A DNA stretch of 51,374 nucleotides from a phage: the sequence record NC_105433.1; one strand, 5' to 3'. The position numbers and the translations under genes are program-made. Below the pieces are notes generated by a model. The model had not been told where the DNA came from, searched no databases, and saw only the letters and a list, made by a program, of their open reading frames with translations. Below are positions 2,155 to 24,327 of this stretch, in pieces (position 1 is the stretch's first letter; each line of letters starts with the position of its first letter).

Positions 2155-2180
2155 CACTAATTGCTAAAAAGTTATATAAT
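2149..2180 (+). promoter_or_regulatory. Degenerate copy of the conserved intergenic box plus TATAAT
   Basis: aatagcactaattgctaaaaag overlapping the terL stop (TAG), followed by tataat at about 2175-2180. Confidence 0.35.
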
Positions 2181-2183
2181 CAA

Positions 2184-2208
2184 GGCTGGATTTTTCCAGC
2201 CTTTTTTA
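2184..2208 (+). terminator. Hairpin plus T-run between terL and portal (intrinsic terminator or attenuator)
   Basis: ggctgg-attttt-ccagcc followed by tttttt, immediately before the portal RBS. Confidence 0.5.
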
Positions 2209-5407: not shown

Positions 5408-5917
5408 ATGGCTAAAATTGGAGCAAGTTATTTTGACACTATGGCGCGTGCGCTTCCTGGTCAGGTATCCGACACGTCAGCATATAACATCGACGGCGCT
5501 TGCGTTCTTGACAAGGAAGACGGCATCCCAATCCTGGTTGGCGTGGCTGTTAAGCTAAAAGGCGTTGACTCAATGGGTAATAAGCTGATCGACGCTATTT
5601 CTGGTGGTGGTGATGTTCCTTATGGCGTTGGCGTTCGTTCGCACTTTCAAACTACGGCTGATAATGGTCGAATGGTTTATGAGGCTGGCGGCGGAATCAA
5701 CGTTATGACTGAGGGCCGCGTCTGGATGATTGGCGATGATTCCGATAAAAGCAAAAAGCCAGAATATCGTGAGCCTGTAAAAATTGATGAAAACTCTGGC
5801 AAGGTGAAAAGTGCTGGCGCTATCAATACAAACTGGGTTTACACTGGCGATAAAACCACTTTTGGAACTGGCAATAATATGTTGACTTTGTTTGAAGTTC
5901 AGGTCTTCCCAAGCTAA
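5408..5917 (+). CDS. Virion structural protein, paralogue of 5968..6750 (possible head decoration)
   Basis: 169 aa; shares YNIDG..C and RG.VW segments with the next gene; followed by a terminator. Confidence 0.45.
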   Translation: MAKIGASYFDTMARALPGQVSDTSAYNIDGACVLDKEDGIPILVGVAVKLKGVDSMGNKLIDAISGGGDVPYGVGVRSHFQTTADNGRMVYEAGGGINVMTEGRVWMIGDDSDKSKKPEYREPVKIDENSGKVKSAGAINTNWVYTGDKTTFGTGNNMLTLFEVQVFPS

Positions 5918-5921
5918 AATC

Positions 5922-5948
5922 AAGGCGCTCGCTTGAGCGCCTTTTTTA
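5922..5948 (+). terminator. Intrinsic terminator
   Basis: aaggcgctc-gctt-gagcgcctt stem followed by ttttttatt. Confidence 0.6.
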
Positions 5949-5967: not shown

Positions 5968-6750
5968 ATGGCTAAAGATTATTCATCTGTTATGGGTCTT
6001 TCTTGCCCTGGTTGTTTGGTTGATTCTACTCGCTACAATATTGATGGTACTGGCGTTTGTGGTTCTGAATCGATCATTGCTGGTAAGGTTGTTTTCTTTA
6101 AGGAGAGAATCGGCGGTTACAACATATTTGTTGACCACAAAGAGGAGGACGCTGTGGTTGCGGGTGTTGCGCTAAGGAGCAACATAACAACGACAGTTAA
6201 CGAGGAAGACGGGTATTCCGACTACAAGGAAGGAGACGCCATCAACATTTTGACAAGAGGTGTTGTATGGTGTGTAACTCAAACAATTGAATCTCCCCCT
6301 GAGCATGGGGATCTTGTTTATGTTAACAATGATGGTTTTGTAGCAAAGAGTGATGGCGATGAAATCGTCGATGGCTGGATTTTTACTGGTGACTTCTACA
6401 AGTTTGATGAAACAATAAACATAGTCGGAGTCAGAATAACGCCGCTTTATCATAGAAAATATCTTCTCACTGGTGCGATCATTGAGGCTGAAAATGGATA
6501 CATAGAGGGAACAGAGACGATTGATAACGTCCAATTAAAGGTAACGGTTGTTCCGACTTGGGCTGATGACAAAACGGGTCAGTGGACAATTACAAATCCA
6601 CAAGATCCAAAGGTTGCCAGTGTTAGCCGCACAGGTCTTGTTGTTCCTACTGGTGTAGGAGGAAGAGTTAACGTCAACTGGACTGCTAATGATGGTTCTG
6701 GAGTTGCTGACCAGTTTGATATTGTATTTACGAAAACCGCTGGCGAATAA
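5968..6750 (+). CDS. Virion structural protein with C-terminal Ig-like (Big_2-type) domain, putative head decoration
   Basis: 260 aa; RBS aaggag 7 nt upstream; N-terminal region paralogous to 5408..5917; C-terminal beta-rich segment resembles bacterial Ig-like folds. Confidence 0.5.
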   Translation: MAKDYSSVMGLSCPGCLVDSTRYNIDGTGVCGSESIIAGKVVFFKERIGGYNIFVDHKEEDAVVAGVALRSNITTTVNEEDGYSDYKEGDAINILTRGVVWCVTQTIESPPEHGDLVYVNNDGFVAKSDGDEIVDGWIFTGDFYKFDETINIVGVRITPLYHRKYLLTGAIIEAENGYIEGTETIDNVQLKVTVVPTWADDKTGQWTITNPQDPKVASVSRTGLVVPTGVGGRVNVNWTANDGSGVADQFDIVFTKTAGE

Positions 6751-6752: not shown

Positions 6753-6794
6753 AATAGCATAAAAAAACATTGCACGTTTAACAAAAAGTGCTAT
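6753..6794 (+). promoter_or_regulatory. Composite of forward partial box and reverse-oriented box upstream of the major capsid gene
   Basis: aatagcataaaaaaacattgcacg followed by tttaacaaaaagtgctat (reverse complement of the conserved box). Confidence 0.35.
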
Positions 6795-6799
6795 CATCT

Positions 6800-6827
6800 A
6801 GGCCGTTACATTTAACGGCCTTTTTTA
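6800..6827 (+). terminator. Intrinsic terminator / attenuator just upstream of the major capsid RBS
   Basis: aggccgtta-catt-taacggcct, 9-bp perfect stem, followed by tttttt; RBS ggagg and ATG at 6841 follow. Confidence 0.6.
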
Positions 6828-7812: not shown

Positions 7813-7823
7813 TCAGATAACAT

Positions 7824-7853
7824 GGGGAGCCTTAAGGGTTCCCCTTTTTTTTA
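7824..7853 (+). terminator. Intrinsic terminator after the major capsid gene
   Basis: ggggagcc-ttaa-gggttcccc hairpin followed by 8 T. Confidence 0.65.
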
Positions 7854-9800: not shown

Positions 9801-10463
9801 ATGCACTTGCCTAATGGTTCTCAAATTTTCATCGGCGTTAATATGGGTGAGCCAATTAGCGCGACTCAAATCAGCAATGCTGATAATCCTGTTTTTACAA
9901 CCGAAAACACTCAAAGCATCAAAAAAGGCGCTTATGTTCTTATTGAAACATCTTCTTGGGGAAAACTTGTTAGTCGAGTGCTTCGAGTTAAGGAAGTATC
10001 AGATAATGTAAGTGTTACTCTTGATGGTGTTAGCACTAAAGATACAAACGTATTTCCAGAAGGACAGAACACAGCAACTTTCCGAGAAGTGAAATCTTGG
10101 GTAGAGGTTCCTTGCGTACAGGATCTTGCGCAGGACGGCGGCGAGCAACAGTATTACACTTATCAGTGTTTGGCTGATGACCAGGAACAGCAGTTGCCGA
10201 CCTACAAGAGCGCCGTTTCTCTTACCTATACTTTCGCGCATGAATATGATAATCCGATTTATCCGATCTTGCGCGAGGCTGAGGAATCCGGCGACGTAAC
10301 CGCTTTGCGTATGTACGTGCCGAAAGCTAAAGAGATGCGTTGCTGGGCTGGCGTATTGTCTTTTAATGACATTCCGCAAACCACTATGAACGAAATGGAA
10401 ACTGTTTCCCTTTCCGTATCTCTGAAAGGTAGATTCACGTTCTTACCTTCTGACGTTAAGTAA
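9801..10463 (+). CDS. Major tail protein (putative)
   Basis: 220 aa; strong RBS aaaggagg; followed by a terminator and then the chaperone and tape measure genes. Confidence 0.6.
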   Translation: MHLPNGSQIFIGVNMGEPISATQISNADNPVFTTENTQSIKKGAYVLIETSSWGKLVSRVLRVKEVSDNVSVTLDGVSTKDTNVFPEGQNTATFREVKSWVEVPCVQDLAQDGGEQQYYTYQCLADDQEQQLPTYKSAVSLTYTFAHEYDNPIYPILREAEESGDVTALRMYVPKAKEMRCWAGVLSFNDIPQTTMNEMETVSLSVSLKGRFTFLPSDVK

Positions 10464-10468
10464 AACAA

Positions 10469-10490
10469 GGGGCGTTGCGCCCCTTTTTTC
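10469..10490 (+). terminator. Intrinsic terminator after the major tail gene
   Basis: ggggcg-ttg-cgcccc followed by tttttt. Confidence 0.65.
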
Positions 10491-10529
10491 ATTCCTGTAA
10501 AATCAATCTATCAAATAAATTAATTCCAC

Positions 10530-10549
10530 TTTTAACAAAAAGTGCTATA
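10530..10549 (+). promoter_or_regulatory. Reverse-oriented conserved box abutting the RBS of the tail chaperone gene
   Basis: ttttaacaaaaagtgctata followed directly by aaggag and the ATG at 10563. Confidence 0.35.
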
Positions 10550-10562: not shown

Positions 10563-10880
10563 ATGGCAAAGATGAAACTAACGTTAGGCCCACTGCCTGA
10601 TTTTAAACTGCCTGTTTCTTTCGTGCTTCCAAATGGTGATGAGCAAGTTATTGTTTTCACTGTGCGCCACAAGAAGGCAAGCGAGATTCACGAACGATAC
10701 ACGGCAGAAAAGCCGATGAGCGACGTAGAAATGATCACCTTCCTTGCTTCCGGTTGGGATCTGGAAGATGAATTTAACGAGGAAAACGTTGCTAAATTGC
10801 TGGATTATTACCCTTCTGCGTCATTATCGCTGACTGGTCATTATATGAAAGCACTTGCGGGGCAGCGGGTAAAAAACTAA
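10563..10880 (+). CDS. Tail assembly chaperone (lambda gpG-like)
   Basis: 105 aa, directly upstream of the tape measure gene; ends just after a slippery heptamer. Confidence 0.7.
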   Translation: MAKMKLTLGPLPDFKLPVSFVLPNGDEQVIVFTVRHKKASEIHERYTAEKPMSDVEMITFLASGWDLEDEFNEENVAKLLDYYPSASLSLTGHYMKALAGQRVKN

Positions 10881-11197
10881 AGCGGGCGGTTTACCTGTTT
10901 TACCTCAAGCCGCCAACTGACGCACAATTAGAGGCCGTCGGCCTATCCCGTTCAGACTACGAAGGGGAGGAGCCGCCGGAGGTAATTTTTGATGAATCAA
11001 TGTTTCAATCTTGGGATCTGTTTTGCGCCATGCAGACGCAATGGAGATCGACTAGCGGCAGCGTGTATGGGTTCGACTATAACGTTTTGCCCATGCTTTT
11101 TGATATTTACAAGATTGATGATCGTGAGATGGCGCTAAATGATTTGCGCATCATGGAACAAAAGGCGCTAGAAATGATTCATTCAAACAAAACATAA
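10563..11197 (+). CDS. Tail assembly chaperone frameshift fusion (gpGT-like), -1 shift at 10871-10877
   Basis: The -1 frame continues 10871 to 11197 (covering ORF 11000..11197) and ends 40 nt before the tape measure start. Confidence 0.6.
10871..10877 (+). other. Slippery heptamer A_AAA_AAC for programmed -1 ribosomal frameshift
   Basis: aaaaaac in frame as gtA AAA AAC TAA; the -1 frame is open from here to 11197 with no stop. Confidence 0.65.
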
Positions 11198-11218
11198 GCG
11201 CCGCGAGGCGCTTTTTTA
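11197..11218 (+). terminator. Hairpin plus T-run between the chaperone and tape measure genes
   Basis: agcgcc-gcga-ggcgct followed by tttttt. Confidence 0.45.
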
Positions 11219-11236: not shown

Positions 11237-13918
11237 ATGGCTGAAAAATACGCTGGCCTAACGCTAGGCGTTGACGTGTCGCAGGTCAACAATGCTGTTA
11301 AATCATTGCAGCAATTCAAGAAGGCAAACGACGACGCAAAAAAAAGCGTTAATGAATTTGTTGATTCTGAGGTTGTTGCCCGACAGCAAGCAAAACAGCT
11401 TGCCGAAGAACTGGCGCGCCAGAAAGCAGAATTTAAGAAAATCCAGGAGTCAATTGATCCCACTGCATCAAAGATGGATAAGCTGCGAAAGGCAGCGACA
11501 CAGCTTGATGCGCTATGGAAAAAGGGCGTTGTTCCTGATCAGACTTTTTTTGAGCTTGGGGCAATTCTTGAGACGCAGCAAAACAAGCTGATCGCAACCA
11601 AAAAAGCGATGACAGAGGAAGGTCGCGCGGCGCTTGAGGAATCAAAGAACAAGGCGCGTGCAGCGGAAGAGGCTAAAAAATTCGTCCAGGCTTTGCGTGA
11701 GCAGGAAGAAGCAGCAGGAAAAAGCAAGTCTGAATTGCTGGAAATGAAAGCGGCACAGCTTGGAGTTAGCCAGGAGGCAGCACCTTACATCGCAAGGCTG
11801 AAAGAGCAGGAAAAGCAGATCCAGAAACTTGGGATTTCTACAGGCCAATACAAACAAGCAATGGCGCAATTGCCAATGCAGATCACAGACGTGGTGACTT
11901 CACTTGCTTCTGGTATGCCCGTTTGGTTGGTCGCAGTCCAGCAGGGTGGACAGATCAAGGATTCTTTTGGTGGCGCATCCAATGCTTTAAAAGCGTTGCT
12001 ATCTTTCCTGAATCCGGTAAACGTGGCGTTTGGTTTGCTTTCCGGCACGCTGGCAATTGCTGCATATAATGCCCACAAAGCACAGACAGAGCTTGAGGCA
12101 ATTAAAAAAACCGTTCAGGAAACAACTGGCTTGAGTGGTGAGTTTGCCGAAAAGATTGCTATAGGAATCCAGGAGCTTTCCGACAAGACAGGCGAAAGCG
12201 CCGAAGATCTGGCAAAGGCTTACATCACCACGAAAGACGGCGCGAGCGAGGCGATTAAAAAACTGGTTGACGTTGGAATGACTTATGATGACGCAAAAAA
12301 GAAAGTCAACGAGTACAAGGGCGCGTCTAGCTTTGTCAGCTTGAATAACGAAATTGCAAACCACAAAAACAAAGTCCTTGAGTTGGGCGAGTCGTGGTAT
12401 GAAGTTTTGAAAGCTAAGCGTGATTACGCTTCCCCGTCCGGCGGCCTGTTAGGTAAAGAGCTTGGCTATGTTAATCCTATGCTTAAGTTTGCACTTAACA
12501 CTTATGAAGACATTGGAAAGGTCGTAAAAGATGCGAATAAGGACATGGCGGAGCGAGCGGAGCGAATCGACAAAGAAAACTTGTCATTAAACAGAGTGAG
12601 AGCGGCGCAAGAGGCTTTAAACAAAGCCATTGAGGATCAGAAGGGCGTGGCGCGTTCGGCTGATGAAGAACTGAAAAAGCGCGCGGCTGAAAACGTGGAG
12701 TTCAGACGCAAAGAGCTTGAGGAGATCAAGAAGCAGGAGCAGAAAAAGAAAGAGGCTAAATGGGGAATAGTTCGCGGACCTACTGAGCAGCTTGATAAAG
12801 AGTTGTACGTTTTAAAAGCGCAACTGGAAACTCTTAAAGAGCATCGCACTGTTAACGATGTTATTTCTCGCCAGCGTAAATCTTTATGGAGCATCGAAAA
12901 GCAGATCGAGATCCTAGAGAATGCGCAGAGCAAGCGTAAATTGACCGGAGCGGAACAGGCGCTACTAAACGAGCAAAAAGCCGTTCTTGAAATGGCAAGA
13001 CAAAAAGCGGAGCTAGGGGATCAGATTGTTTTGCAGGAGCGCAAAAACAAACTGGAGCAAGATAGTCTTAAGTTTATCCGTGAAACGGAGGCGGCTATTG
13101 ATGCGATTGGCCTTAAGCAACTTGGCTACACTGAAAAGCAGATCGAGCGTGAGCTAGAGTTACGCAAGCTGCGCACCGACTACGAGGCGCAAGGCGGAAG
13201 CGTTAGCGACGAAGTTTTTCAGCAAATGGAGACGAAACTTAAGCTGTATTACCAGGCACAAGACGAGGCGCAAGGCAACTGGTTAGCCGGAGCAAAGAAC
13301 GCATGGGAGCTATTCGCGGAAGATGCAAACAATGCCTATGGCAATGTTCAGCAGATTGCAAGCGAGGCGTTAAACGGCCTTACAAACCAATTAGCGAATT
13401 TTATCGCTACTGGCAAGGCAAACTTTAAAGACTTCTCGACGGCTATCATCAAAATGATTATTCAGATGATCACGAAAATGGTTGTCTTTAATGCGTTATC
13501 TGGCCTGATGGGTGGTCAAACCTGGACGATGGGGAGCTTGCTTAAGAATATTGGCGGATTTGCTGGCGGTGGATACACTGGCGATGGCGGGAAGTATGAG
13601 CCAGCCGGAATTGTTCATAAGGGTGAATTTGTCATGACGAAGGAGGCAACGCAGCGTATCGGAGTAGGCAACTTGTACCGCATGATGCGAGGCTATGCTA
13701 ACGGCGGCGTTGTTGGTGGTTCCGGCTATACTGGCGGTGGCACTGTCACTGGTGGAGCACCTCAATTTAACATCGGCGGGATTGATGTTAGCATCACTAA
13801 CGGCAACGATCCGAAGGGCATCGAAACTGGTGTTAAGATGATCTTTACTGATATGATTAAGCGTTCCTGTATGCAGGGCGGCGAGGTTTACGAATTTGTT
13901 ATGAGCAAGCGAGGTTGA
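11237..13918 (+). CDS. Tail tape measure protein
   Basis: 893 aa; long Ala/Lys/Glu/Gln-rich coiled-coil region; Gly-rich C-terminal segment; RBS ggagg; canonical position. Confidence 0.9.
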   Translation: MAEKYAGLTLGVDVSQVNNAVKSLQQFKKANDDAKKSVNEFVDSEVVARQQAKQLAEELARQKAEFKKIQESIDPTASKMDKLRKAATQLDALWKKGVVPDQTFFELGAILETQQNKLIATKKAMTEEGRAALEESKNKARAAEEAKKFVQALREQEEAAGKSKSELLEMKAAQLGVSQEAAPYIARLKEQEKQIQKLGISTGQYKQAMAQLPMQITDVVTSLASGMPVWLVAVQQGGQIKDSFGGASNALKALLSFLNPVNVAFGLLSGTLAIAAYNAHKAQTELEAIKKTVQETTGLSGEFAEKIAIGIQELSDKTGESAEDLAKAYITTKDGASEAIKKLVDVGMTYDDAKKKVNEYKGASSFVSLNNEIANHKNKVLELGESWYEVLKAKRDYASPSGGLLGKELGYVNPMLKFALNTYEDIGKVVKDANKDMAERAERIDKENLSLNRVRAAQEALNKAIEDQKGVARSADEELKKRAAENVEFRRKELEEIKKQEQKKKEAKWGIVRGPTEQLDKELYVLKAQLETLKEHRTVNDVISRQRKSLWSIEKQIEILENAQSKRKLTGAEQALLNEQKAVLEMARQKAELGDQIVLQERKNKLEQDSLKFIRETEAAIDAIGLKQLGYTEKQIERELELRKLRTDYEAQGGSVSDEVFQQMETKLKLYYQAQDEAQGNWLAGAKNAWELFAEDANNAYGNVQQIASEALNGLTNQLANFIATGKANFKDFSTAIIKMIIQMITKMVVFNALSGLMGGQTWTMGSLLKNIGGFAGGGYTGDGGKYEPAGIVHKGEFVMTKEATQRIGVGNLYRMMRGYANGGVVGGSGYTGGGTVTGGAPQFNIGGIDVSITNGNDPKGIETGVKMIFTDMIKRSCMQGGEVYEFVMSKRG

Positions 13919-13920
13919 TA

Positions 13921-14271
13921 ATGAAGCTGGATCAGTTTAAGTGGTGTACGCAGGTTCAGAATGGCGGCGGGGCCATGACGTCATCGAATAACGATCGAGA
14001 GATTGCATTCGGTAACGGATACACACAGGTAGCATCTGGAGGTTTTAACACAATCCGGCGAGAGTTCAGCATTGTTTACGCTGGGCTTGATTACAGAGAT
14101 GTTGTCAAGTTCCTGAATGAGCACAGGCTAAAACCTTTCTTGTGGATCATGCCAGATGGAAGCCCTGGATTGTTTAGGGTGAAAAGCGGTAGCGTCGGCC
14201 TTACTCCATTGTCGCCAACCGTTCAGGAAGTAAAAGCCACTTTTACGGAACAATTTACATCAATGCAGTAA
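13921..14271 (+). CDS. Minor tail protein (lambda gpM-like, putative)
   Basis: ORF frame 13915..14271 begins at a TTG; first ATG is at 13921 with RBS gagg; about 116 aa after the tape measure gene. Confidence 0.5.
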   Translation: MKLDQFKWCTQVQNGGGAMTSSNNDREIAFGNGYTQVASGGFNTIRREFSIVYAGLDYRDVVKFLNEHRLKPFLWIMPDGSPGLFRVKSGSVGLTPLSPTVQEVKATFTEQFTSMQ

Positions 14272-14275
14272 TTTA

Positions 14276-14313
14276 AAGCCGCCCTTGTGCGGCTTTTTTC
14301 TTGATGTTACAAT
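14276..14313 (+). promoter_or_regulatory. Composite terminator with embedded sigma70-like promoter (TTGTGC, 17 nt, TACAAT)
   Basis: Hairpin aagccgc-ccttgt-gcggctt plus T-run; -35-like ttgtgc lies in the 3' stem and tacaat at about 14308-14313; RBS aaggagg precedes the ATG at 14334. Confidence 0.4.
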
Positions 14314-14333
14314 GAGCAAAAAGGAGGTAGAAA

Positions 14334-15095
14334 ATGGCTAATAAAGAATCAGGTAGAGTTGAATTTGAGAACTGCCTACAAAGTTTGTACCCAGGTGAAA
14401 TTATAACGCTTGTAGAGATTGACGGGACGAAGTTCGGGGCAAATATTTACCGATTTCACAATGAGAACATCTCTTATACTGCCGAAGAATTAATGCAAGC
14501 GCAGCAAACCGGAATCTTGCCGCCGAAAGATATTATTTTTCAGGGTGAGGTTTACGGAGCGCGGCCTTTCGGTGTGAGCGGGATTAACTTCACAAGTAAC
14601 GGCAGGGCAGATAAGCCTCAGCTTATAGTGTCAAACCTTGACAGCAGGGTTAGCGCCATGATCAGAAACTACAATGGCATGATGCAAGCAAAGGTGACTT
14701 TCTGGATTACGGCAAAGGAATTTATAGGAGAAGGCGGAGCAATCAAAGATGGCGCTTACAGAAAATTGGTTTATTACATTGAGCGCCCAAGCCAGTATAA
14801 TAGAGAGGTGGCGAAATTTGATCTGACATCGCCTTACGATATGGATGGATTAATGATCCCGCCGCGCATCACTCAAAGCGTTTGCTATTGGGCGCAAAGG
14901 GGGTGGTACAGGAGCGGAAAGGGTTGCTCTTATAACGGATCGGCAATGTTCGATAAAGACAATAAGCCAGTAACAGATCCATCACAAGACTATTGCGCAG
15001 GAACTGTAACGGCTTGCAAATTGAGATTCGGTAAGCAAAACGAGTTGGATTTCGGCGGCTGTGCGGTGGCATCACTGCTACGGAGGAATCAATAA
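14334..15095 (+). CDS. Minor tail protein L (lambda gpL-like)
   Basis: 253 aa; position between M-like and K-like genes; C-terminal Cys cluster. Confidence 0.7.
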   Translation: MANKESGRVEFENCLQSLYPGEIITLVEIDGTKFGANIYRFHNENISYTAEELMQAQQTGILPPKDIIFQGEVYGARPFGVSGINFTSNGRADKPQLIVSNLDSRVSAMIRNYNGMMQAKVTFWITAKEFIGEGGAIKDGAYRKLVYYIERPSQYNREVAKFDLTSPYDMDGLMIPPRITQSVCYWAQRGWYRSGKGCSYNGSAMFDKDNKPVTDPSQDYCAGTVTACKLRFGKQNELDFGGCAVASLLRRNQ

Positions 15096-15826
15096 TGATT
15101 AGTGCAAAAATTAAACTTGAAATAATGCAGCACGTTAAAGAGGAATACCCTAAAGAGGCTTGCGGCGTCATAACTCAAAAGTCACGGGTACAGAAATATC
15201 ACCGCATAACCAACGTTCATGACGATCCAGAAAATCATTTTGAAATGGACGCCGTAGAATACGCTGAATCGCTCGACAAAGGCGAATTAATCGCGGTGGT
15301 GCATTCCCATTGCGGGGATGGTGCTAGCACGATACCGAGCGCGCACGACTCATGTATGTGCGATGAAATGGGTGTGTCGTGGATTATAGTGTCATGGCCC
15401 GAAGGTGATATGAGAATTGTCGAGCCGCAGGAGAGGCCGCTTATCGGTCGCCCGTGGTCGCTGGGGTCGTTCGATTGCTGGGGTCTTATCATGGCATGGC
15501 ATAAACAGCACGGAGTAGTATTGAATGACTTCCGAAAGCCTTACGAGTGGTGGAGGTCAGAATATGGTGAAAATCTTTACCAGGATAATTATTTGAAAGA
15601 GGGATTTGTTGAAACTAACGAGCCTCCAAAACCTGGTGATATGGTGATTATGCAGCTATCATCGTCAGTCTGGAATCATGCGGGGATTTATTTGGGTAAC
15701 AATCAGCTATTACATCATGCGTTTGGAAAGCTATCTCGCATTGACTTGTATTCTGGATGGTATCAGGAGCACACTGTAAAAATTTGCCGACATAAGGATC
15801 TGAAATATGACATTGAAAGTAATTAA
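15095..15826 (+). CDS. Tail assembly protein K (JAB/MPN plus NlpC/P60 domains)
   Basis: 243 aa; HSHCGDGASTIPSAHD metalloprotease-like motif and a Cys/His segment (FDCWGL ... H); ATGA overlap with the L gene. Confidence 0.75.
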   Translation: MISAKIKLEIMQHVKEEYPKEACGVITQKSRVQKYHRITNVHDDPENHFEMDAVEYAESLDKGELIAVVHSHCGDGASTIPSAHDSCMCDEMGVSWIIVSWPEGDMRIVEPQERPLIGRPWSLGSFDCWGLIMAWHKQHGVVLNDFRKPYEWWRSEYGENLYQDNYLKEGFVETNEPPKPGDMVIMQLSSSVWNHAGIYLGNNQLLHHAFGKLSRIDLYSGWYQEHTVKICRHKDLKYDIESN

Positions 15827-16403
15827 GCTATCTGGTTCCCTGGGGCGTAGATTTGGCGTCTTTCACAAAATGGCGGTTGACTCATACCCCGAAGCAATAC
15901 GCGCGTTATCTTCCCAGGTTGAAGGGTTCAAAGACTACATGCAAAGCGAAGTAGGATCGCGCATGAAATACGCTGTATTCGTTGACGGTAAAAACATTGG
16001 TCAGCATGATGAAAAATCATGGAAGTGCGCGCGAGAGGTTCGAATAGTTCCTGTTCCAACTGGTTCTAAGTCCGGCGGCCTGTTCAATGTTGTTTTTGGT
16101 GCTGTAATTATGGCTACTGCGTTCATTACTGGCGGTGGAAGCCTGGCGCTTATGGGCGCTTTTGCATCTTCCGCATTTATGATGGGTGGTGCTATAGCGC
16201 TTGGCGGTGTCATGCAAATGATCTCACCGCAGCAGGGCGGAATGAAACTGCAAAGCCAATCAGCAGAAAACAAGCCTTCTTACGCTTTCGGCGGCGCAGT
16301 AAATACCACGGCGGCAGGTTATCCGGTTCCTTTACCATATGGATATAGGACAGTAGGCGGCGCGATCTGGTCGGCTGGCAGCTACGCAGAAGATAAAGCA
16401 TAA
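15807..16403 (+). CDS. Tail assembly protein I (lambda gpI-like)
   Basis: 198 aa; overlaps the K gene; Gly/Ala-rich hydrophobic C-terminal half; precedes the J-like gene. Confidence 0.6.
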   Translation: MTLKVIKLSGSLGRRFGVFHKMAVDSYPEAIRALSSQVEGFKDYMQSEVGSRMKYAVFVDGKNIGQHDEKSWKCAREVRIVPVPTGSKSGGLFNVVFGAVIMATAFITGGGSLALMGAFASSAFMMGGAIALGGVMQMISPQQGGMKLQSQSAENKPSYAFGGAVNTTAAGYPVPLPYGYRTVGGAIWSAGSYAEDKA

Positions 16404-16408
16404 AAAAA

Positions 16409-16445
16409 TACCCGCCTTGCGCGGGTTTTTTTGTGCCTTTATAAT
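16409..16445 (+). promoter_or_regulatory. Composite terminator with embedded sigma70-like promoter (TTGCGC, 17 nt, TATAAT)
   Basis: cccgc-cttgc-gcggg hairpin followed by ttttttt; tataat at about 16440-16445 with ttgcgc 17 nt upstream inside the hairpin. Confidence 0.4.
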
Positions 16446-16481
16446 GTTCAAACCAAGAAACAGCACAAAAGGTTAAAAGTC

Positions 16482-19400
16482 ATGGCTAAATATATGATAA
16501 GCGGCAGTAAGGGCGGAAGCAAAAAGCCATACGTGCCAAAAGAGATGGAAGATAACCTGATCTCGATAAACAAGATTAAAGTTTTGCTGGCTGTATCTGA
16601 TGGCGAGTGCGATCCAAATTTCACGTTGCGCGATCTTTATCTTGATGATGTTCCGGTTATTGCCAGCGATGGCACTGTTAACTACGAGGGAGTTACGGCT
16701 GAATATCGACCAGGTACGCAGACGCAAGATTACATCCAGGGGTTTACTGACACATCAAGCGAGGTGACAGTTTCGCGAGATATTACAGCAGACAATCCTT
16801 ATGTTATATCTGTGACAAACAAAAATCTTTCTGCAATCAGAATCAAGATTCTGATGCCAGTTGGCATGAAGCAGGAGGATAACGGCGATCTTGTTGGCGT
16901 AAGGGTTCAATATGCCGTAGATATGGCTGTTGATGGCGGTTCTTATAACGAGGTTATGAGAGATGTAATTGACGGCAAGACGAGATCAGGATATGACCGC
17001 AGCAGAAGGATTGATCTTCCTAAGTTTGATGAGCGCGTTTTAATCAGGGTCAAGCGACTGACTCCAGACAGCACATCTTCAAAGGTGACTGATAAAATCA
17101 AACTGCAAAGTTACGCTGAGGTTGTGGATGCAAAATTCCGTTATCCTCTGACTGGCCTTGTATTCGTAGAATTTGACAGCGAATTGTTTCCTACGCAAAT
17201 CCCTAACATTTCTATAAAAAAGAAATGGAAGATTATTAATGTGCCAAGCAACTATGATCCAATATCAAGAGAATATCACGGGTCATGGGATGGGACTTTT
17301 AAAAAAGCGTGGTCAAATAATCCTGCTTGGGTTCTTTATGATCTGGTAACGAATCAGCGTTATGGGCTTGACCAGCGAGAGTTAGGAATACAGATCGACA
17401 AGTGGAGCTTATACGAGGCAGGCGTTTACTGCGATCAGAAAGTTCCAGACGGTAAGGGCGGTACAGAGCCTCGCTACCTATGCGATGTGGTGATTCAGAA
17501 TCAAGTTGAGGCTTATCAGCTAATCCGTGACATTTGCTCAATCTTTCGCGGAATGAGCTTTTGGAATGGTGAGAGCTTATCAATCGTGATTGATAAGCCG
17601 CGCGATCCATCATACGTGTTTACTAATGAAAACGTCATCAACGGTGATTTTCAGTACACAACCGCAAGCGAAAAAAGCATGTACACGCAATGTAATGTGA
17701 CGTTTGACGACGAACAAAACATGTATCAACAGGACGTCGAGGGGGTTTTTGATACTGAGGCGGCATTACGATTTGGATACAATCCAACAAGCATTACAGC
17801 GATCGGATGTACACGCAGGAGCGAAGCGAATCGTCGCGGTCGGTGGGTTTTGAAAACAAACCTTAGAAGCACTACTGTAAACTTTGCTACTGGACTGGAG
17901 GGGATGATTCCATCAATAGGTGATGTGATTGCTATCGCAGATAATTTTCAGAGCAGCAACCTAACGTTAAACCTATCGGGCCGAGTGATGGAAGTTTCAG
18001 GATTGCAGGTTTTCGTTCCGTTTAAGGTTGATGCTCGTCCTGGTGATTTTATTATCATCAACAAGCCGGACGGCAAGCCAGTTAAGCGAACGATCTCAAA
18101 GGTGAGCGCAGACGGAAAAACCATTGAGTTAAATATTGGCTTTGGTTTTGATGTTAAGCCTGATACTGTTTTTGCGATTGACCGTACTGACCTTGCGTTG
18201 CAGCAATACGTTGTGACAACTATCAGCAAGGGTGATGACGAAAACGAGTTTACCTATTCAATCACGGCTGTAGAGTACGATCCGAACAAATACGACGAGA
18301 TTGATTATGGAGTAAACATTGATGACAGGCCAACTTCAATTGTTCAGCCTGACGTGATGGCAGCGCCTGAGAACGTGCAGATCTCTTCTTATTCTCGCGT
18401 CGTGCAGGGTGTAAGCGTTGAAACTATGGTTGTGTCGTGGGAAAAAGTGCCTTATGCGTCACTGTATGAAATGCAATGGCGAAAAGGTGATGGCAACTGG
18501 CTGAATACGCCGCAGACAGCTAACAAAGAGATAGAGGTAGAAGGGATTTACTCGGGGAACTATCAAGTAAGGGTTAGATCTGTTTCTGCAAGCGGGAACA
18601 CTTCCCCGTGGTCAAAGATTGCAACCGCCACCCTGACAGGTAAAGTTGGCGAGCCAGGGGCGCCGATTAATCTTACAGCTTCTGATAATGAAGTTTTTGG
18701 CATTCGTGTCAAATGGGGTATGCCGGAAGGATCAGGCGATACGGCTTACATTGAGCTTCACCAATCGCCAGACGGAACGGTTGAAAACTCAAGCCTGCTT
18801 ACGCTGATTCCATATCCTCAATATGAGTATTGGCATAGCACGTTACCAGCGGGTCAAGTTGTATGGTATAGAATCCGTAGCGTTGACAGGATCGGCAACG
18901 TTTCCGGCTGGACTGACTTTGTTCGCGGCATGGCGTCAGATGATGTTGAATCTGTTTTAGGCGACATTCTGGACAAGATTTTTGATACCGAAGCGGGTCA
19001 AGAAATCAAAGAGAACGCCATAGACAGTGCAAACAAAATCAAAGATCAGGCGCAATCAATCATCCAGAACGCATTGGCAAACGATGCTGATGTGAAGTGG
19101 ACGCGAGTACAAAACGGAAAGCGTAAGGCTGAATATGGTCATGCACTGGAGCTTATTGCTAACGAAACGGAGGCGCGAGTAACTCAAATCGAAGAGTTAA
19201 AGGCGTCAATTGATGAAGATATAGTTTCAAGTATCAAAACCGTTCAGGAAGCGATTGCCAATGAATCAGAGACGCGAGCTACTCAAGTGCAGCAGCTTGA
19301 TTCTAAATTTACGAAGGAAATAGACGGCGTAAAACGAGATACGGCTGCAAGCATTGGCGAGGTAAGGCAAACCATTACCAATGAATCAGAAGCGCGCGCT

Positions 19401-20060
19401 CAGGCCGTTCAGCAGCTTGACGCTAAGTTCACGAAAGAGATAAACGACCTTGACGGAGTTATCAAAACAGAAGTCGAGGCTAACATCTCAGAAGTGAAAC
19501 AGGCGATCGCCAATGAGACAGAGGCAAGGGTTCAGGCTGACCAGGCTTTAACAGCTAAATTCGGAGATGTTGAATCAGCACTAGCCGAAAAACTTGATTC
19601 GTGGGCTAACGTTGATTCTGTTGGCGCTAAGTACGCTATGAAATTGGGCCTTACTTACAAGGGGCAGAAGTACAGCGCAGGAATGATCATGCAGTTGTCG
19701 CAATCTTCTCAAGGCCTGATCTCGCAAATCTTGTTCGATGCTAACAGGTTCGCGATCATGACTAGCTCTACTGGCGGTACGTTTACATTGCCGTTTGTAG
19801 TAGAAAATAACCAGGTGTTTATCAACAGTTTGTTGGTGAAAAACGGGTCCATTACTAACGCAATGATTGGTAACGTGATTCAGTCAAATAACTTTGTTCA
19901 GAATCAGCAAGGGTGGAGGCTTGATAAAAATGGTAACTTTGAGAACTACGGAACGAGAGCGGGGGAAGGAGCTACAAAATTCACTAACGAAGGCTTAAAG
20001 GTGAAAGATGCAAATGGACGATTGAGGGTTGAGATAGGGAGAATAACCGGAAGTTGGTAA
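16482..20060 (+). CDS. Central tail fibre / host specificity protein (lambda gpJ-like)
   Basis: ORF frame 16431..20060 begins at a TTG; first ATG is at 16482; about 1192 aa; last large gene of the tail module; C-terminal tandem repeats of about 40 aa. Confidence 0.85.
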   Translation: MAKYMISGSKGGSKKPYVPKEMEDNLISINKIKVLLAVSDGECDPNFTLRDLYLDDVPVIASDGTVNYEGVTAEYRPGTQTQDYIQGFTDTSSEVTVSRDITADNPYVISVTNKNLSAIRIKILMPVGMKQEDNGDLVGVRVQYAVDMAVDGGSYNEVMRDVIDGKTRSGYDRSRRIDLPKFDERVLIRVKRLTPDSTSSKVTDKIKLQSYAEVVDAKFRYPLTGLVFVEFDSELFPTQIPNISIKKKWKIINVPSNYDPISREYHGSWDGTFKKAWSNNPAWVLYDLVTNQRYGLDQRELGIQIDKWSLYEAGVYCDQKVPDGKGGTEPRYLCDVVIQNQVEAYQLIRDICSIFRGMSFWNGESLSIVIDKPRDPSYVFTNENVINGDFQYTTASEKSMYTQCNVTFDDEQNMYQQDVEGVFDTEAALRFGYNPTSITAIGCTRRSEANRRGRWVLKTNLRSTTVNFATGLEGMIPSIGDVIAIADNFQSSNLTLNLSGRVMEVSGLQVFVPFKVDARPGDFIIINKPDGKPVKRTISKVSADGKTIELNIGFGFDVKPDTVFAIDRTDLALQQYVVTTISKGDDENEFTYSITAVEYDPNKYDEIDYGVNIDDRPTSIVQPDVMAAPENVQISSYSRVVQGVSVETMVVSWEKVPYASLYEMQWRKGDGNWLNTPQTANKEIEVEGIYSGNYQVRVRSVSASGNTSPWSKIATATLTGKVGEPGAPINLTASDNEVFGIRVKWGMPEGSGDTAYIELHQSPDGTVENSSLLTLIPYPQYEYWHSTLPAGQVVWYRIRSVDRIGNVSGWTDFVRGMASDDVESVLGDILDKIFDTEAGQEIKENAIDSANKIKDQAQSIIQNALANDADVKWTRVQNGKRKAEYGHALELIANETEARVTQIEELKASIDEDIVSSIKTVQEAIANESETRATQVQQLDSKFTKEIDGVKRDTAASIGEVRQTITNESEARAQAVQQLDAKFTKEINDLDGVIKTEVEANISEVKQAIANETEARVQADQALTAKFGDVESALAEKLDSWANVDSVGAKYAMKLGLTYKGQKYSAGMIMQLSQSSQGLISQILFDANRFAIMTSSTGGTFTLPFVVENNQVFINSLLVKNGSITNAMIGNVIQSNNFVQNQQGWRLDKNGNFENYGTRAGEGATKFTNEGLKVKDANGRLRVEIGRITGSW

Positions 20061-20090
20061 AAAAAGGGGGCGTGGCCCCCTTTAATTTTA
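20061..20090. terminator. Bidirectional terminator between convergent J (+) and minus-strand genes
   Basis: gggggc-gtg-gccccc hairpin flanked by an A-run upstream and T-rich sequence downstream. Confidence 0.6.
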
Positions 20091-21753: not shown

Positions 21754-22809
21754 ATGAGTGATTTTAACGCCTATACTAGCGAAGAAATGAGCAATGAACT
21801 TTATCATGATCCTAACGCGTGGACGGCTGAATACGTCAGCGGTTCCAGCCTGGCGGAGATTTACAGCACTTGCCCTGCGTACTGGAAGTACAAGCCTCGC
21901 CAGGAAACCAAAGCACTTGTTTTCGGTACGCAGTCGCATACCAATTTTGAAAGCAAGGAGTTATTCGAAAAAACATATCGCCGCGCACCGTCGCAGGATG
22001 ATTTTAAAGATCTGATCACAAGTCAAACGGCGTTGGCCTCAAAGCTGAAATCTTTTGGCCTGAAAGGTACAACTGGTAAGCAATACCCCGAATTGCTGGA
22101 AATGCTGTACAAGTGCGGTGAGGATCTCAATGTATGGTGGCTTATCGAAATGATGGCAGAATGCCAGGCCGCAGCGGACGGCGTGCAGTTAATCGACGCG
22201 AAAGATTATGATGCCTGTGTAGCGATGCGGCGCGTACTTGAGGCAATACCTGAGCATAATGCTTGCATGAATAGCCCAACCGCGCAGCGTGAAATGTCAA
22301 TATTCGGGATCATCAATGGCGTAAAAGTTAAAGTGCGCCTTGATCACGTTGACGTAAACAAGGATGTAAAGGCCACAATCATTAACGGTTACGACGAAAA
22401 AGGCCGACCGATTTATGAAGAAGTCATCTATCCAGAAGCTGTGATTATAACTGACTATAAAACAACGGTTAGCGCAAATCCGGTTGACTTCCAGCGTCTG
22501 GCTTACAATCACGGCTATTATCTCAAAATGGCTTTGCAACATGATTTATTCAAAAAGGCGTATCCAGACGAGGAAAGACCAGTAATTGTGAGATTGCTTG
22601 CTCAAGAGAAGAAAGAGCCTTACTTGCCGCTCGCATTCCGAATGAACATTGAGCAATTGAAGATCGGGCGTATCCAGTACATGAGCGTGATCAACAAGTT
22701 CAACGTTTGCCAACAGTTAGATGAATGGCCTTCGTATGCAAACGGACAACCAGAAATTGATCTTGATACTCCTGATTGGGTTCGCGCTCAATTCAGGCAG
22801 TATCTATAA
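21754..22809 (+). CDS. Recombination exonuclease (PD-(D/E)XK, RecB/Cas4-like, putative)
   Basis: 351 aa; IITDYKTT segment resembling nuclease motif III; first gene of an operon with Erf-like and SSB genes. Confidence 0.6.
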   Translation: MSDFNAYTSEEMSNELYHDPNAWTAEYVSGSSLAEIYSTCPAYWKYKPRQETKALVFGTQSHTNFESKELFEKTYRRAPSQDDFKDLITSQTALASKLKSFGLKGTTGKQYPELLEMLYKCGEDLNVWWLIEMMAECQAAADGVQLIDAKDYDACVAMRRVLEAIPEHNACMNSPTAQREMSIFGIINGVKVKVRLDHVDVNKDVKATIINGYDEKGRPIYEEVIYPEAVIITDYKTTVSANPVDFQRLAYNHGYYLKMALQHDLFKKAYPDEERPVIVRLLAQEKKEPYLPLAFRMNIEQLKIGRIQYMSVINKFNVCQQLDEWPSYANGQPEIDLDTPDWVRAQFRQYL

Positions 22810-22814
22810 CAAAC

Positions 22815-22862
22815 TAAACAAATAGCTAAACTTTTATAATGGTTGGTGATATAATTCGCCAA
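22815..22862 (+). promoter_or_regulatory. Degenerate box plus hairpin-enclosed TATAAT
   Basis: aaatagctaaactttt followed by tataat and a ggttgg...ccaacc stem whose loop contains a second tataat. Confidence 0.3.
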
Positions 22863-24300: not shown

Positions 24301-24327
24301 AAAAGCCCCGCATATGCGGGGCATTTT
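24301..24327. terminator. Bidirectional terminator between convergent ssb (+) and tail fibre (-)
   Basis: gccccgcatatgcggggc palindrome flanked by aaaa and ttttt. Confidence 0.65.

What the first reader, a model, noticed from the sequence alone, without database searches (positions are those of the whole stretch)
14276..16445. Composite terminator-promoter elements within the tail gene cluster
At 14276-14313 and 16409-16445 an intrinsic terminator hairpin with T-run overlaps a sigma70-like promoter whose -35-like hexamer (TTGTGC, TTGCGC) lies in the 3' half of the stem and whose -10 (TACAAT, TATAAT) follows 17 nt later. Terminators also sit directly before the decoration, major capsid and SSB genes (5922, 6800, 23805). 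This suggests segmental re-initiation and attenuation that tunes stoichiometry of structural proteins.
Basis: seen in the sequence. Interest (0 to 1): 0.45.

Follow-up and report, generated by a model that had tools for sequence, protein, structure and literature searches.

The report
Terminator hairpins with built-in restart promoters
In this T1-like coliphage, several transcription stop signals inside the structural gene block each carry a start signal within or beside the same hairpin; the design is conserved across the phage family and resembles the composite promoter/terminator motifs known from T4-like phages, so it is a solid but not revolutionary finding.

Summary
At 14275-14313 and 16410-16445 a GC hairpin plus T-run holds a TTG in its loop/3' arm, and a -10 hexamer (TACAAT, TATAAT) lies exactly 17 nt further on. 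A third, unreported copy lies at 10467-10503, between the major tail and chaperone genes.

The window is a Warwickvirus (Drexlerviridae, about 98% identical to SECphi27). In about 160 related loci:
- The hairpin, the T-run and a TAnnAT hexamer persist at all three junctions, while flanking bases drift.
- The TTG-to-hexamer spacer stays at 17 although arm, T-run and gap lengths change in compensating ways.

This supports a real intrinsic terminator fused to a sigma70-type promoter. No transcript data exist, so the proposed stoichiometry tuning remains inference.

Two head junctions carry the opposite order, with the -10 directly before the hairpin. Early promoters combine a known 19-nt repeat, a hairpin and a -10. 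HNH endonuclease cassettes insert at these junctions.

The closest known kind is the PeSL of T4-type phages. T1 was earlier described as built of terminator-flanked "transcriptons". T1 and TLS annotations list these terminators but not the promoters.

Verdict: a new member of a known kind, of moderate interest.

The parts
14275..14299 (+). Site 1 intrinsic terminator: hairpin AAAGCCGC-CCTTGT-GCGGCTTT plus a T6 run, 4 nt after the stop codon of the gpM-like minor tail gene (13915-14271).
   Evidence: MFE -11.8 kcal/mol, z -4.3. Hairpin and T-run are kept at this junction in 49 of 50 unique relatives. The homologous terminator is annotated in T1 (22793-22816) and in TLS as T46.
14285..14313 (+). 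Site 1 promoter: -35-like TTGTGC (14285-14290, in loop and 3' arm), a 17-nt spacer holding the T-run, TG at 14305-14306, and -10 TACAAT at 14308-14313. Predicted start is near 14320, the SD is at 14323-14328, and the gpL start codon is at 14334.
   Evidence: -10 conservation is shown. The spacer is 17 in 7 of 10 TTG-bearing lineages. The Klebsiella-phage lineage has TTTACG at 17 nt instead.
16410..16432 (+). Site 2 intrinsic terminator: hairpin ACCCGC-CTTGC-GCGGGT plus a T7 run, 6 nt after the gpI stop codon (16401-16403).
   Evidence: MFE -10.0 kcal/mol, z -2.5; the weakest of the ten hairpins folded, -9.5. mar001J1 carries a compensatory stem variant, ACCAGC/GCTGGT. Four of 5 aligned pairs show double changes. 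The terminator is annotated in T1 (24972-24994) and in TLS as T49.
16417..16445 (+). Site 2 promoter: -35-like TTGCGC (16417-16422), a 17-nt spacer, and the consensus -10 TATAAT (16440-16445). Predicted start is near 16452, and J starts at 16482.
   Evidence: The hexamer is TATAAT or TACAAT in all 51 unique relatives in which a hairpin was found, and also in the 3 where the hairpin search failed. The spacer is 17 in 13 of 14 lineages although arm, T-run and gap vary (3/7/7, 3/9/5, 2/5/10).
10467..10503 (+). Hairpin AAGGGGCG-TTG-CGCCCCTT (10467-10485) and T6, TTGCGC at 10475-10480, a 17-nt spacer, and -10 TAAAAT at 10498-10503. It lies between the major tail gene V (ends 10463) and the chaperone gene G (starts 10563).
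   Evidence: MFE -13.4 kcal/mol. TTG lies 16-17 nt from the hexamer in all 22 lineage representatives. T1 has TTGCAC-17-TAAAAT here.
2175..2207 (+). Opposite order at TerL|portal: -10 TATAAT (2175-2180) lies 1 nt before terminator hairpin 2182-2203 plus a T-run. The DR copy at 2151-2169 lies just upstream. A transcript started here would begin inside the 5' arm and so could not form the hairpin (inferred).
   Evidence: The hexamer matches at least 5 of 6 in 7/7 lineage representatives, against 1.5 expected. T1 has GATATAAT-TA-GGGCTG.
6770..6826 (+). Opposite order before the major capsid gene: TTGCAC (6770-6775), 16 nt, TGcTATCAT (6789-6797), then terminator hairpin 6800-6821 plus a T-run and the SD. 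A reversed DR (6776-6794) supplies the spacer and the TGcTAT.
   Evidence: The hexamer matches at least 5 of 6 in 14/21 representatives, against 2.8 expected. In T1 the homologous promoter (15062-15089) and terminator (15095-15121) are annotated side by side.
5915..5947 (+). Weaker candidate of the opposite order: TAAAAT (5915-5920) 1 nt before terminator hairpin 5922-5943, ahead of the Ig-like decoration gene (5968-6750).
   Evidence: Conservation is only 6/14 against 2.6 expected, so it is not convincing.
7818..7852 (+). Weaker candidate of the opposite order: TAACAT (7818-7823) abutting terminator hairpin 7824-7844 plus T8, after the major capsid gene.
   Evidence: A TAnnAT hexamer lies 0-3 nt before the hairpin in 13/14 representatives at 4 of 6 or better, against 7.5 expected, which is borderline.
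11196..11217 (+). Plain terminator between GT and the tape measure gene. It is followed at once by the SD and has no coupled hexamer. It serves as the internal negative control.
   Evidence: The hexamer test gives 1/9 against 0.75 expected.
20063..20083 (+). Terminator after J, which closes the unit started at site 2.
   Evidence: -14.6 kcal/mol.
16460..16478 (+). DR-like box ACAGCACAAAAGGTTAAAA in the predicted 5' UTR of J. It contains the SD (AAGG).
   Evidence: 3 mismatches to the DR. It is conserved in relatives and listed as DR8 in TLS. Its function is unknown.

Best explanation
Each element is a compact two-in-one transcription signal read by the host sigma70 RNA polymerase.

Read as RNA from upstream, the GC hairpin plus U-run acts as an intrinsic terminator. 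Because the stems are modest (about -10 to -12 kcal/mol), it more likely acts as an attenuator that stops part of the flow leaving the previous gene block.

Read as DNA, the same stretch is a promoter. The TTG in the hairpin loop/3' arm serves as a weak -35. The T-run forms the spacer. A good -10 lies 17 nt on, extended by TG at site 1. Fresh transcripts would start about 7 nt later, downstream of the terminator, 14-60 nt ahead of the next start codon.

The tail region is thereby cut into units:
- V|G promoter -> G, GT -> (plain terminator) -> TMP, M -> terminator
- M|L promoter -> L, K, I -> terminator
- I|J promoter -> J -> terminator

The upstream terminator also shields each weak internal promoter from occlusion by incoming polymerases.

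Shown: the sequence anatomy, its family-wide conservation, and the spacing constraint.
Inferred: actual termination, actual initiation, their efficiencies, and the effect on protein ratios.
For: Anatomy.

Identity: Warwickvirus, Drexlerviridae, with lambda-like tail gene order. No phage RNA polymerase or sigma factor is annotated in SECphi27 or T1. The TLS authors found none in TLS.

Conservation:
- Every lineage keeps hairpin, T-run and TAnnAT at M|L, I|J and V|G, down to 45-60% protein identity, with different stems.
- Positions T1, A2, A5 and T6 of the hexamer are almost invariant, as expected for a sigma70 -10.
- Shuffle controls give 16/16, 18/19 and 14/17 observed, against 2.6, 4.5 and 5.3 expected. 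No shuffle out of 2000 reached the observed value.

The -35:
- The match to TTGACA peaks at a spacer of 17 (2.8-3.0 matches, against about 1 at other offsets).
- The variance of spacer length is 0.27, 0.89 and 0.18. The summed variances of its three parts are 3.3, 2.1 and 10.9.

Other points:
- Negative control: the GT|TMP terminator has no hexamer.
- T1 itself has TTGCGC-17-TAGAAT, TTGCGC-17-TATAAT and TTGCAC-17-TAAAAT.
- When an HNH cassette sits between I and J, J still keeps a terminator plus TATAAT directly upstream.
- In T4-type phages the same kind of composite motif was shown by reporters to have both activities.
Against: - There is no transcript 5' or 3' end data for this or any T1-like phage.
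- The -35-like hexamers match only 3 of 6 positions and lie in GC-rich stem DNA, so a standard scan does not call these promoters. The TLS authors, using a stricter rule, called none here.
- TTG is absent from the loop in Klebsiella-phage lineages at M|L and I|J.
- In many lineages TG abuts the hexamer directly rather than in the canonical TGn position.
- One lineage (L052) has the M|L terminator but no hexamer.
- The lineage representatives are related, so the shuffle statistics overstate independence.
- Anchoring on the best hexamer inflates its information content somewhat.
Confidence: 0.7

Rival explanations
1. The elements are terminators only. The conserved TAnnAT box is not a promoter but another signal in the read-through RNA, or an AT-rich leftover. 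Examples would be an RNase E-type processing site after a protective 3' hairpin, or a 5' UTR or translation element. All tail genes would be made from one long late transcript with attenuation.
For: - The -35 is weak and the generic scan does not call the sites.
- Published T1 and TLS annotations list only terminators here.
- AU-rich single-stranded RNA next to a hairpin is a typical RNase E context (own knowledge).
Against: - The pattern of invariance (T1, A2, A5 and T6 fixed; positions 3-4 free) is that of a sigma70 -10, not of a generic AU-rich site.
- A TTG is held at exactly 17 nt by compensating length changes.
- The GT|TMP terminator lacks the box.
- The box keeps a fixed relation to the hairpin but a variable distance (about 14-60 nt) to the start codon.
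Confidence: 0.12
2. The promoters are real but do not use the loop TTG as a -35. They would be -10 or extended -10 promoters, possibly helped by a phage factor or by the AT-rich T-run. The TTG and its spacing would be kept only because the hairpin geometry is kept.
For: - TTG is missing in Klebsiella-phage lineages at two sites, while the -10 stays.
- TG lies before the hexamer in most lineages.
- The phage's main promoter class uses a phage-specific 19-nt repeat rather than a canonical -35.
- A conserved HTH regulator is encoded at 27722-28198.
Against: - Loop size (3-7 nt), arm length, T-run length and gap all vary, yet the TTG-to-hexamer distance stays at 17.
- The Klebsiella-lineage M|L loop offers TTTACG at 17 nt.
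- V|G keeps TTG at 16-17 nt in all 22 representatives.
Confidence: 0.15
3. The elements matter mainly as recombination or homing junctions. As short repeated motifs at gene-block borders, they would let cassettes such as HNH endonuclease genes move in and out, as proposed for PeSLs. Their regulatory activity would be secondary.
For: - HNH_3 genes sit exactly at these junctions: I|J in mar001J1, JLBYU10 and L025, with a remnant in tonn; TerL|portal in L085 and L120.
- The cassette brings its own DR-hairpin-TACAAT promoter and ends at a terminator-TATAAT unit with a swapped stem.
- In T1 the M|L and I|J elements share 22 identical bases.
Against: - The elements are present and conserved in the great majority of lineages, which have no insertion.
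- Insertions at intergenic promoter/terminator borders are expected anyway, because they are least harmful there.
- The conservation pattern fits promoter and terminator rules, not a nuclease target.
Confidence: 0.1

Closest known systems
PeSLs (promoter-early stem-loops) of T4-type myoviruses RB49, phi1, PST and nt-1 (PMC2839356, PMC4122927)
   Same: - Both are intergenic composite motifs that join a sigma70-type promoter to a stable stem-loop acting as terminator or attenuator for upstream transcription.
- The described PeSL subclasses include a stem-loop overlapping the -35, lying between -35 and -10, overlapping the -10, or lying just downstream of the -10. All of these arrangements are seen here.
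- In both, the motifs flank mobile or variable genes.
   Different: - The phage family is different (T1-like siphovirus).
- The elements studied here lie in the conserved late structural block, not in hyperplastic early regions.
- They carry a canonical T-run, have only a weak -35, and lack the AT-rich upstream part.
- The early-type units of this phage use a family-specific 19-nt repeat in place of a consensus -35.
- No functional test exists here.
T1 'transcriptons' (Roberts et al. 2004, as summarised in PMC11447400)
   Same: The idea is the same: the T1 late region is a series of modules flanked by rho-independent terminators, containing RpoD-dependent promoters. T1 is a relative, and its M|L and I|J terminators are annotated.
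   Different: - The original paper could not be read.
- The current T1 record and the TLS tables annotate no promoter at M|L, I|J or V|G.
- The TLS authors state they cannot confirm transcriptons.
- The overlap of -35 and hairpin loop, and the spacing conservation, were not found in the sources I could read.
Morons of lambdoid phages (promoter-gene-terminator units)
   Same: Both are autonomous units bounded by a promoter and a terminator inside a late operon. The HNH cassette at I|J has this form.
   Different: Morons are added accessory genes. Here the signals bracket core tail genes, and the terminator and the next promoter are fused into one 40-nt element.
Hairpin promoters of phage N4 virion RNA polymerase (own knowledge)
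   Same: A short GC hairpin lies inside the promoter region.
   Different: N4 hairpins are recognised as extruded DNA by a phage-encoded polymerase. No phage polymerase is annotated in this family, and a sigma70 -10 is present here.

Membership tests
Intrinsic (Rho-independent) terminator | GC-rich stem of at least 5 pairs with a short loop, stable as RNA | tested here: met
   Site 1 has 8 pairs (5 GC) and folds at -11.8 kcal/mol. Site 2 has 6 pairs (5 GC) and folds at -10.0 kcal/mol. Site 3 has 8 pairs and folds at -13.4 kcal/mol.
Intrinsic (Rho-independent) terminator | Run of T/U directly after the stem | tested here: met
   The runs are T6 at 14294-14299, T7 at 16426-16432 and T6 at 10484-10489.
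Intrinsic (Rho-independent) terminator | Structure kept in relatives while the sequence changes | tested here: met
   Different perfect stems occupy the same junction in relatives. mar001J1 has a compensatory C-G to A-T change. Four of 5 aligned pairs show double changes. The alignment of distant hairpins is poor.
Intrinsic (Rho-independent) terminator | RNA 3' ends and a drop in downstream transcription in vivo or in vitro | not testable with these tools
   No transcript data were available or found.
Sigma70-type promoter | -10 hexamer close to TATAAT, with A at position 2 and T at position 6 | tested here: met
   The hexamers are TACAAT (5 of 6), TATAAT (6 of 6) and TAAAAT (5 of 6). They are conserved across lineages and above shuffle expectation.
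Sigma70-type promoter | -35 hexamer close to TTGACA, 16-18 nt upstream | tested here: inconclusive
   Only TTG matches (3 of 6), so the sites fail the standard scan. However, the match peaks at a spacer of 17 and the spacing is held by compensating changes.
Sigma70-type promoter | Extended -10 (TGn) that can replace a weak -35 | tested here: inconclusive
   Site 1 has TGtTACAAT. Site 2 has none. Many relatives have TG abutting the hexamer, which is not the canonical register.
Sigma70-type promoter | Primary transcript start about 7 nt after the -10 | not testable with these tools
   This needs 5'-triphosphate mapping or in vitro transcription.
PeSL (T4-type composite promoter/stem-loop) | Promoter boxes and a stable stem-loop joined in one intergenic motif | tested here: met
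   compared with the definition read.
PeSL (T4-type composite promoter/stem-loop) | Motif repeated many times in the genome with shared sequence, including an AT-rich part upstream of the -35 | tested here: inconclusive
   The three late elements share only their build and short strings. The early-type units share the 19-nt DR: 23 copies against 2.7 expected, with 16 of 17 followed by a -10 at 18-19 nt.
PeSL (T4-type composite promoter/stem-loop) | Association with gene insertions, deletions or replacements between close relatives | tested here: met
   HNH_3 cassettes lie at the I|J and TerL|portal junctions in some relatives.
PeSL (T4-type composite promoter/stem-loop) | Element of T4-like myovirus hyperplastic early regions, with a strong consensus early promoter | tested here: not met
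   The phage is a T1-like siphovirus. The elements lie in the conserved late tail block, and the -35 matches only 3 of 6. The elements work like a PeSL but do not belong to the family as it was defined.
N4-type hairpin promoter | A phage-encoded RNA polymerase that recognises the hairpin | tested here: not met
   No RNA polymerase gene is annotated in SECphi27 or T1. The TLS authors report none.

The most novel reading that the evidence does not exclude
The overlap is not just economy of space. It may couple termination to restart. Host RNA polymerase often stays on the DNA after releasing the RNA at an intrinsic terminator, and it can reinitiate at a nearby promoter (PMC6978380, PMC10372574). 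Here the polymerase would release its RNA while standing on the spacer of the next promoter. A fixed fraction of terminated polymerases could then rebind sigma and restart on the spot. In that case the output of each tail-gene block would be a set ratio of the block before it, rather than an independent promoter strength.
Probability: 0.1. Interest if true: 0.7.

Novelty: new member of a known kind. Interest (0 to 1): 0.4.

Why it matters
T1-like phages (Drexlerviridae) are common coliphages and Klebsiella phages. They are used in therapy collections and as laboratory models. They encode no RNA polymerase or sigma factor, and how they programme late transcription is not settled. A 2024 reannotation of TLS found only three promoters and left the family's 19-nt repeat unexplained.

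Conserved terminator-embedded promoters give a concrete, testable map of transcription units for the structural genes. Together with the pattern of repeat, hairpin and -10, they should improve annotation of hundreds of genomes.

The 40-nt elements are also ready-made insulated stop/start parts for phage engineering. They mark the sites where homing-endonuclease cassettes enter.

Tried and rejected
- Generic promoter scan: it does not list either site because the -35 matches only 3 of 6 positions. It therefore cannot decide the question.
- Motif count in the window: 2 hits against 1.4 expected. The count alone is not significant; only the placement in terminator loops is.
- MAFFT plus RNAalifold on distant I|J hairpins: the alignment is not structural and the consensus energy is only -2 kcal/mol. 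I relied instead on per-sequence hairpin detection.
- First variance test of spacer parts: it was confounded by the arbitrary border between stem and T-run. I redid it with a T-run-based split.
- Coding explanations:
  - The in-frame TTG-started ORF 16431-20060 and the mini-ORFs starting at the ATG that overlaps each hexamer were rejected.
  - Intergenic lengths in relatives are not multiples of three.
  - The ATG is not conserved.
- Rfam: no family anywhere in the window.
- Literature:
  - No transcript maps of T1-like phages were found.
  - The T1 (2004) and Rtp (2006) genome papers are not held.
  - A text search for the repeat sequence gave only unrelated hits.
- Upstream-type hexamers at 5915 and 7818: conservation is weak or borderline. 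I list them only as candidates.
Full report
**What the window is.** The 2.9-kb region around the finding is 97-99% identical to Escherichia phages SECphi27, JLBYU10, tonn, tunus and swan01. SECphi27 is classified as Drexlerviridae, Tempevirinae, Warwickvirus, so this is a T1-like siphovirus.

The gene order is lambda-like:
- major tail protein V: 9801-10463
- chaperones G and GT: 10563-10880 and 11000-11197
- tape measure protein: 11237-13918
- gpM-like: 13915-14271
- gpL-like: 14334-15095
- gpK-like: 15095-15826
- gpI-like: 15807-16403
- gpJ-like tail tip protein: 16482-20060

Site 1 lies between M and L. Site 2 lies between I and J.

| | Site 1 | Site 2 |
|---|---|---|
| Hairpin | AAAGCCGC-CCTTGT-GCGGCTTT, 14275-14296 | ACCCGC-CTTGC-GCGGGT, 16410-16426 |
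| T-run | T6 to 14299 | T7 to 16432 |
| -35-like hexamer | TTGTGC, 14285-14290 | TTGCGC, 16417-16422 |
| Spacer | 17 nt | 17 nt |
| -10 hexamer | TACAAT, 14308-14313 | TATAAT, 16440-16445 |

Site 1 also has TG at 14305-14306, the position of an extended -10.

- The terminator scan lists both hairpins, together with those at 2182, 5922, 6800, 7824, 10467, 11196, 20063 and 23805.
- As RNA, sites 1 and 2 fold at -11.8 and -10.0 kcal/mol, with z-scores of -4.3 and -2.5. Site 2 is the weakest and site 1 among the weaker of the ten hairpins folded, which suggests partial rather than complete stops.
- The promoter scan does not list either site, because TTGTGC and TTGCGC match TTGACA at only three positions.
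- The motif TTG-N20-TAYAAT occurs only twice on both strands of the window, which is no more than chance (1.4 expected). Both occurrences are these two sites, each with its TTG in a terminator loop.

**A third copy.** Downstream of the major tail gene the same build recurs. Hairpin AAGGGGCG-TTG-CGCCCCTT lies at 10467-10485, followed by T6. TTGCGC lies at 10475-10480, then 17 nt, then TAAAAT at 10498-10503. The other plus-strand terminators of the late region (2182, 5922, 6800, 7824, 11196) are followed at once by a Shine-Dalgarno sequence. They leave no room for a downstream promoter.

**Comparative test.** I fetched 80 viral contigs through the gpL protein (59-99% identity) and 79 through the major capsid protein. 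I also fetched T1 itself. Junctions were located by tblastn with the flanking proteins.

Conservation of the parts:
- At M|L, I|J and V|G, nearly every lineage has a perfect GC hairpin, a T-run and a TAnnAT hexamer 6-13 nt after the hairpin. This holds down to Klebsiella phages, whose flanking proteins are only 45-60% identical.
- The stems differ between lineages. At I|J they include ACCCGC, CCCCGC, GCCCGC, GTCGCGC, GCCTCCTAT and GCCTGGGGGC. The structure is therefore kept, not the sequence.
- Anchored on the hexamer, information content is 1.4-1.9 bits per position in the hexamer. T1, A2, A5 and T6 are almost invariant while positions 3-4 are free. The next 14 nt carry only 0.4-0.75 bits. 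That is the signature of a sigma70 -10 box.

Shuffle control:

| Junction | Representatives with at least 5 of 6 matches within 26 nt of the hairpin | Expected in composition-matched shuffles |
|---|---|---|
| I\|J | 16/16 | 2.6 |
| M\|L | 18/19 | 4.5 |
| V\|G | 14/17 | 5.3 |

None of 2000 shuffles reached the observed value. The representatives are related, so these figures are not true probabilities. The drift of the flanks shows that enough time has passed for an unselected box to decay.

**The -35 half.**
- The mean match to TTGACA, scanned over all offsets upstream of the hexamer, peaks at a spacer of exactly 17. It is 2.8-3.0 matches there, against about 1 elsewhere.
- I split the spacer into the rest of the 3' arm, the T-run and the gap. 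These parts vary between lineages (3/7/7, 3/9/5, 2/5/10, 4/6/7, 6/7/3), yet their sum stays at 17. It is 17 in 13 of 14 lineages at I|J, 7 of 10 at M|L, and 17 of 22 at V|G with the other 5 at 16.
- The variance of the total is 0.27, 0.89 and 0.18. The summed variances of the parts are 3.3, 2.1 and 10.9.
- Loops range from 3 to 7 nt but keep the TTG. This argues for selection on promoter geometry rather than on loop stability.
- TTG is missing at M|L and I|J in the Klebsiella lineages, although M|L there offers TTTACG at 17 nt.

**Internal control and exceptions.**
- The GT|TMP terminator (11196) shows no coupled hexamer in any lineage: 1/9 against 0.75 expected.
- One lineage (L052) has lost the hexamer at M|L. 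One poor-quality contig (L043) has a broken I|J hairpin.
- The T1 lineage has lost the T-run at V|G but keeps the hairpin and TTG-17-TAAAAT.

**The wider design.** The two sites are part of a genome-wide habit of coupling hairpins to promoters.

1. *Opposite order at head junctions.*
   - At TerL|portal, TATAAT (2175-2180) lies 1 nt before hairpin 2182-2203.
   - Before the major capsid gene, TTGCAC-16-TGcTATCAT (6770-6797) lies 2 nt before hairpin 6800-6821.
   - These hexamers are conserved: 7/7 against 1.5 expected, and 14/21 against 2.8 expected.
   - In T1, the promoter and terminator before the capsid gene are annotated side by side.
   - A transcript started there would begin inside the 5' arm and could not form the hairpin. 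The element would then stop incoming transcripts but not its own. This is inference.
   - The similar hexamers at 5915 and 7818 are only weakly supported.
2. *The 19-nt repeat in the early regions.*
   - ATAGCACTTTTTGTTAAAA occurs 23 times, against 2.7 expected.
   - The TLS authors described this repeat in 2024 as of unknown function.
   - Of the 17 copies that point with the local genes, 16 are followed at 18-19 nt by a -10-like hexamer, against 1.4 in shuffles.
   - Eleven have a stable GC hairpin between the repeat and the hexamer, or around the hexamer. The mean fold energy is -9.2 kcal/mol, against -4.2 +/- 0.5 in shuffles.
   - These hairpins lack T-runs.

**Mobile cassettes at the junctions.**
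- In mar001J1 and JLBYU10 an HNH endonuclease gene sits between I and J. It carries its own repeat-hairpin-TACAAT promoter. It ends at a terminator-TATAAT unit whose stem differs from the window by a compensatory pair (ACCAGC/GCTGGT).
- tonn holds a deleted remnant. L025 has an HNH gene on the opposite strand at the same junction. L085 and L120 have one at TerL|portal.
- All of these are Pfam HNH_3.

**Comparison with what is known.** The closest described kind is the PeSL of T4-type phages. A PeSL is a composite intergenic motif made of a sigma70-like promoter and a stem-loop.
- The stem-loop lies between -35 and -10, overlaps either box, or lies just upstream or downstream.
- Reporter assays showed both promoter and terminator activity.
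- PeSLs are implicated in cassette shuffling.

The elements here work like PeSLs. They differ in the following ways:
- The phage family is different.
- They sit in the conserved late block.
- They have a canonical T-run and only a weak -35.
- The early-type units use a family-specific repeat.

For T1 itself, the late region was described in 2004 as a series of "transcriptons" flanked by terminators and holding RpoD promoters. I know this only through the TLS paper, whose authors could not confirm it for TLS. The original paper is not held.

The T1 record and the TLS tables annotate the M|L, I|J and V|G terminators but no promoters there. I found no transcript mapping of any T1-like phage. Rfam holds nothing for this window.

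**Verdict.**
Comparative evidence shows that both the terminator half and the promoter half are under selection. Termination, initiation and the proposed tuning of protein ratios remain untested.
- The finding is a new member of a known kind, of moderate interest.
- Its main value is a testable transcription-unit map for a widely used phage family, and a likely reading of the family's unexplained repeat.

Noticed in passing
window: 21308(-), 26648, 28210, 30699, 31770, 35012(-), 37174(-), 37848(-), 40374(-), 40880(-), 42184(-), 43538, 44001, 45219, 46694, 48013, 49307 (start of each 19-nt copy): The 19-nt repeat ATAGCACTTTTTGTTAAAA was listed as of unknown function in the 2024 TLS paper. Here 16 of 17 copies are followed at 18-19 nt by a -10-like hexamer (1.4 expected). 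Eleven of the 17 have a stable GC hairpin without a T-run in between or around the hexamer. It looks like the upstream half of the phage's main promoter class, a PeSL-like unit.
   Followed up: partly
window 6776-6794(-), 10530-10548(-), 26648-26666(+), 16460-16478(+), 2151-2169(+): In the late region the same repeat appears in other registers and in reverse orientation. It forms the spacer and TGcTAT of the promoter before the capsid gene. It sits between promoter and SD in the 5' UTRs of G and of the minus-strand 775-aa tail protein. It lies 5 nt from TATAAT at TerL|portal. A diverged copy supplies the SD of J. No single function explains all of these.
   Followed up: partly
L082 2905-3519 (mar001J1), L083 2905-3196 (tonn), L025 5477-6032, L085 368-940, L120 187-842: HNH_3 homing-endonuclease genes are inserted exactly at the I|J and TerL|portal composite junctions in some relatives. 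The cassette at I|J carries its own repeat-hairpin-TACAAT promoter. tonn keeps a deleted remnant.
   Followed up: yes
window 26685-26721 (- strand): On the minus strand, terminator GCCCCGCttatGCGGGGT plus T9 (26721-26704) is followed 13 nt after the T-run by TGcTATTAT, then a reversed repeat and the SD of the 775-aa tail protein gene (24327-26654). T1 has terminator ... TGaTAAAAT ... reversed repeat ... SD at the same junction. This is a possible fourth terminator-then-promoter unit. Its conservation was not surveyed.
   Followed up: partly
window 31770-31815(+) and 35030-34985(-): An inverted pair of near-identical units (repeat + hairpin GCCCGGCctagtGTCGGG + CATAAT or TATATT) points outward/inward around the 31.8-35.0 kb segment.
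   Followed up: no
L163 (T1) 18770-18800; L032-L042 V|G junction: In the T1 lineage the V|G hairpin keeps TTG-17-TAAAAT, but its T-run has decayed (CCCCCTTATTCATTTCTG). There the promoter geometry outlasts the terminator.
   Followed up: no
L163 (T1) 22789-22830 and 24970-25008: In T1 the M|L and I|J elements share 22 identical bases (CCCGCCTTGCGCGGGTTTTTTT). They form a direct repeat flanking L-K-I.
   Followed up: no
window 5408-5917 and 5968-6750: The two genes on either side of terminator 5922 are paralogues (both match phrog_1989). In T1 they are annotated as a capsid decoration protein and an Ig-domain decoration protein.
   Followed up: partly
L122-L162 (Klebsiella-phage lineage), junction before the major capsid gene: The arrangement there is different. 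Terminator GGGGCttcgGCCCC plus a T-run is followed about 20 nt later by a canonical TTGACG-17-GATATT promoter. This replaces the promoter-before-hairpin order of the E. coli phages.
   Followed up: no
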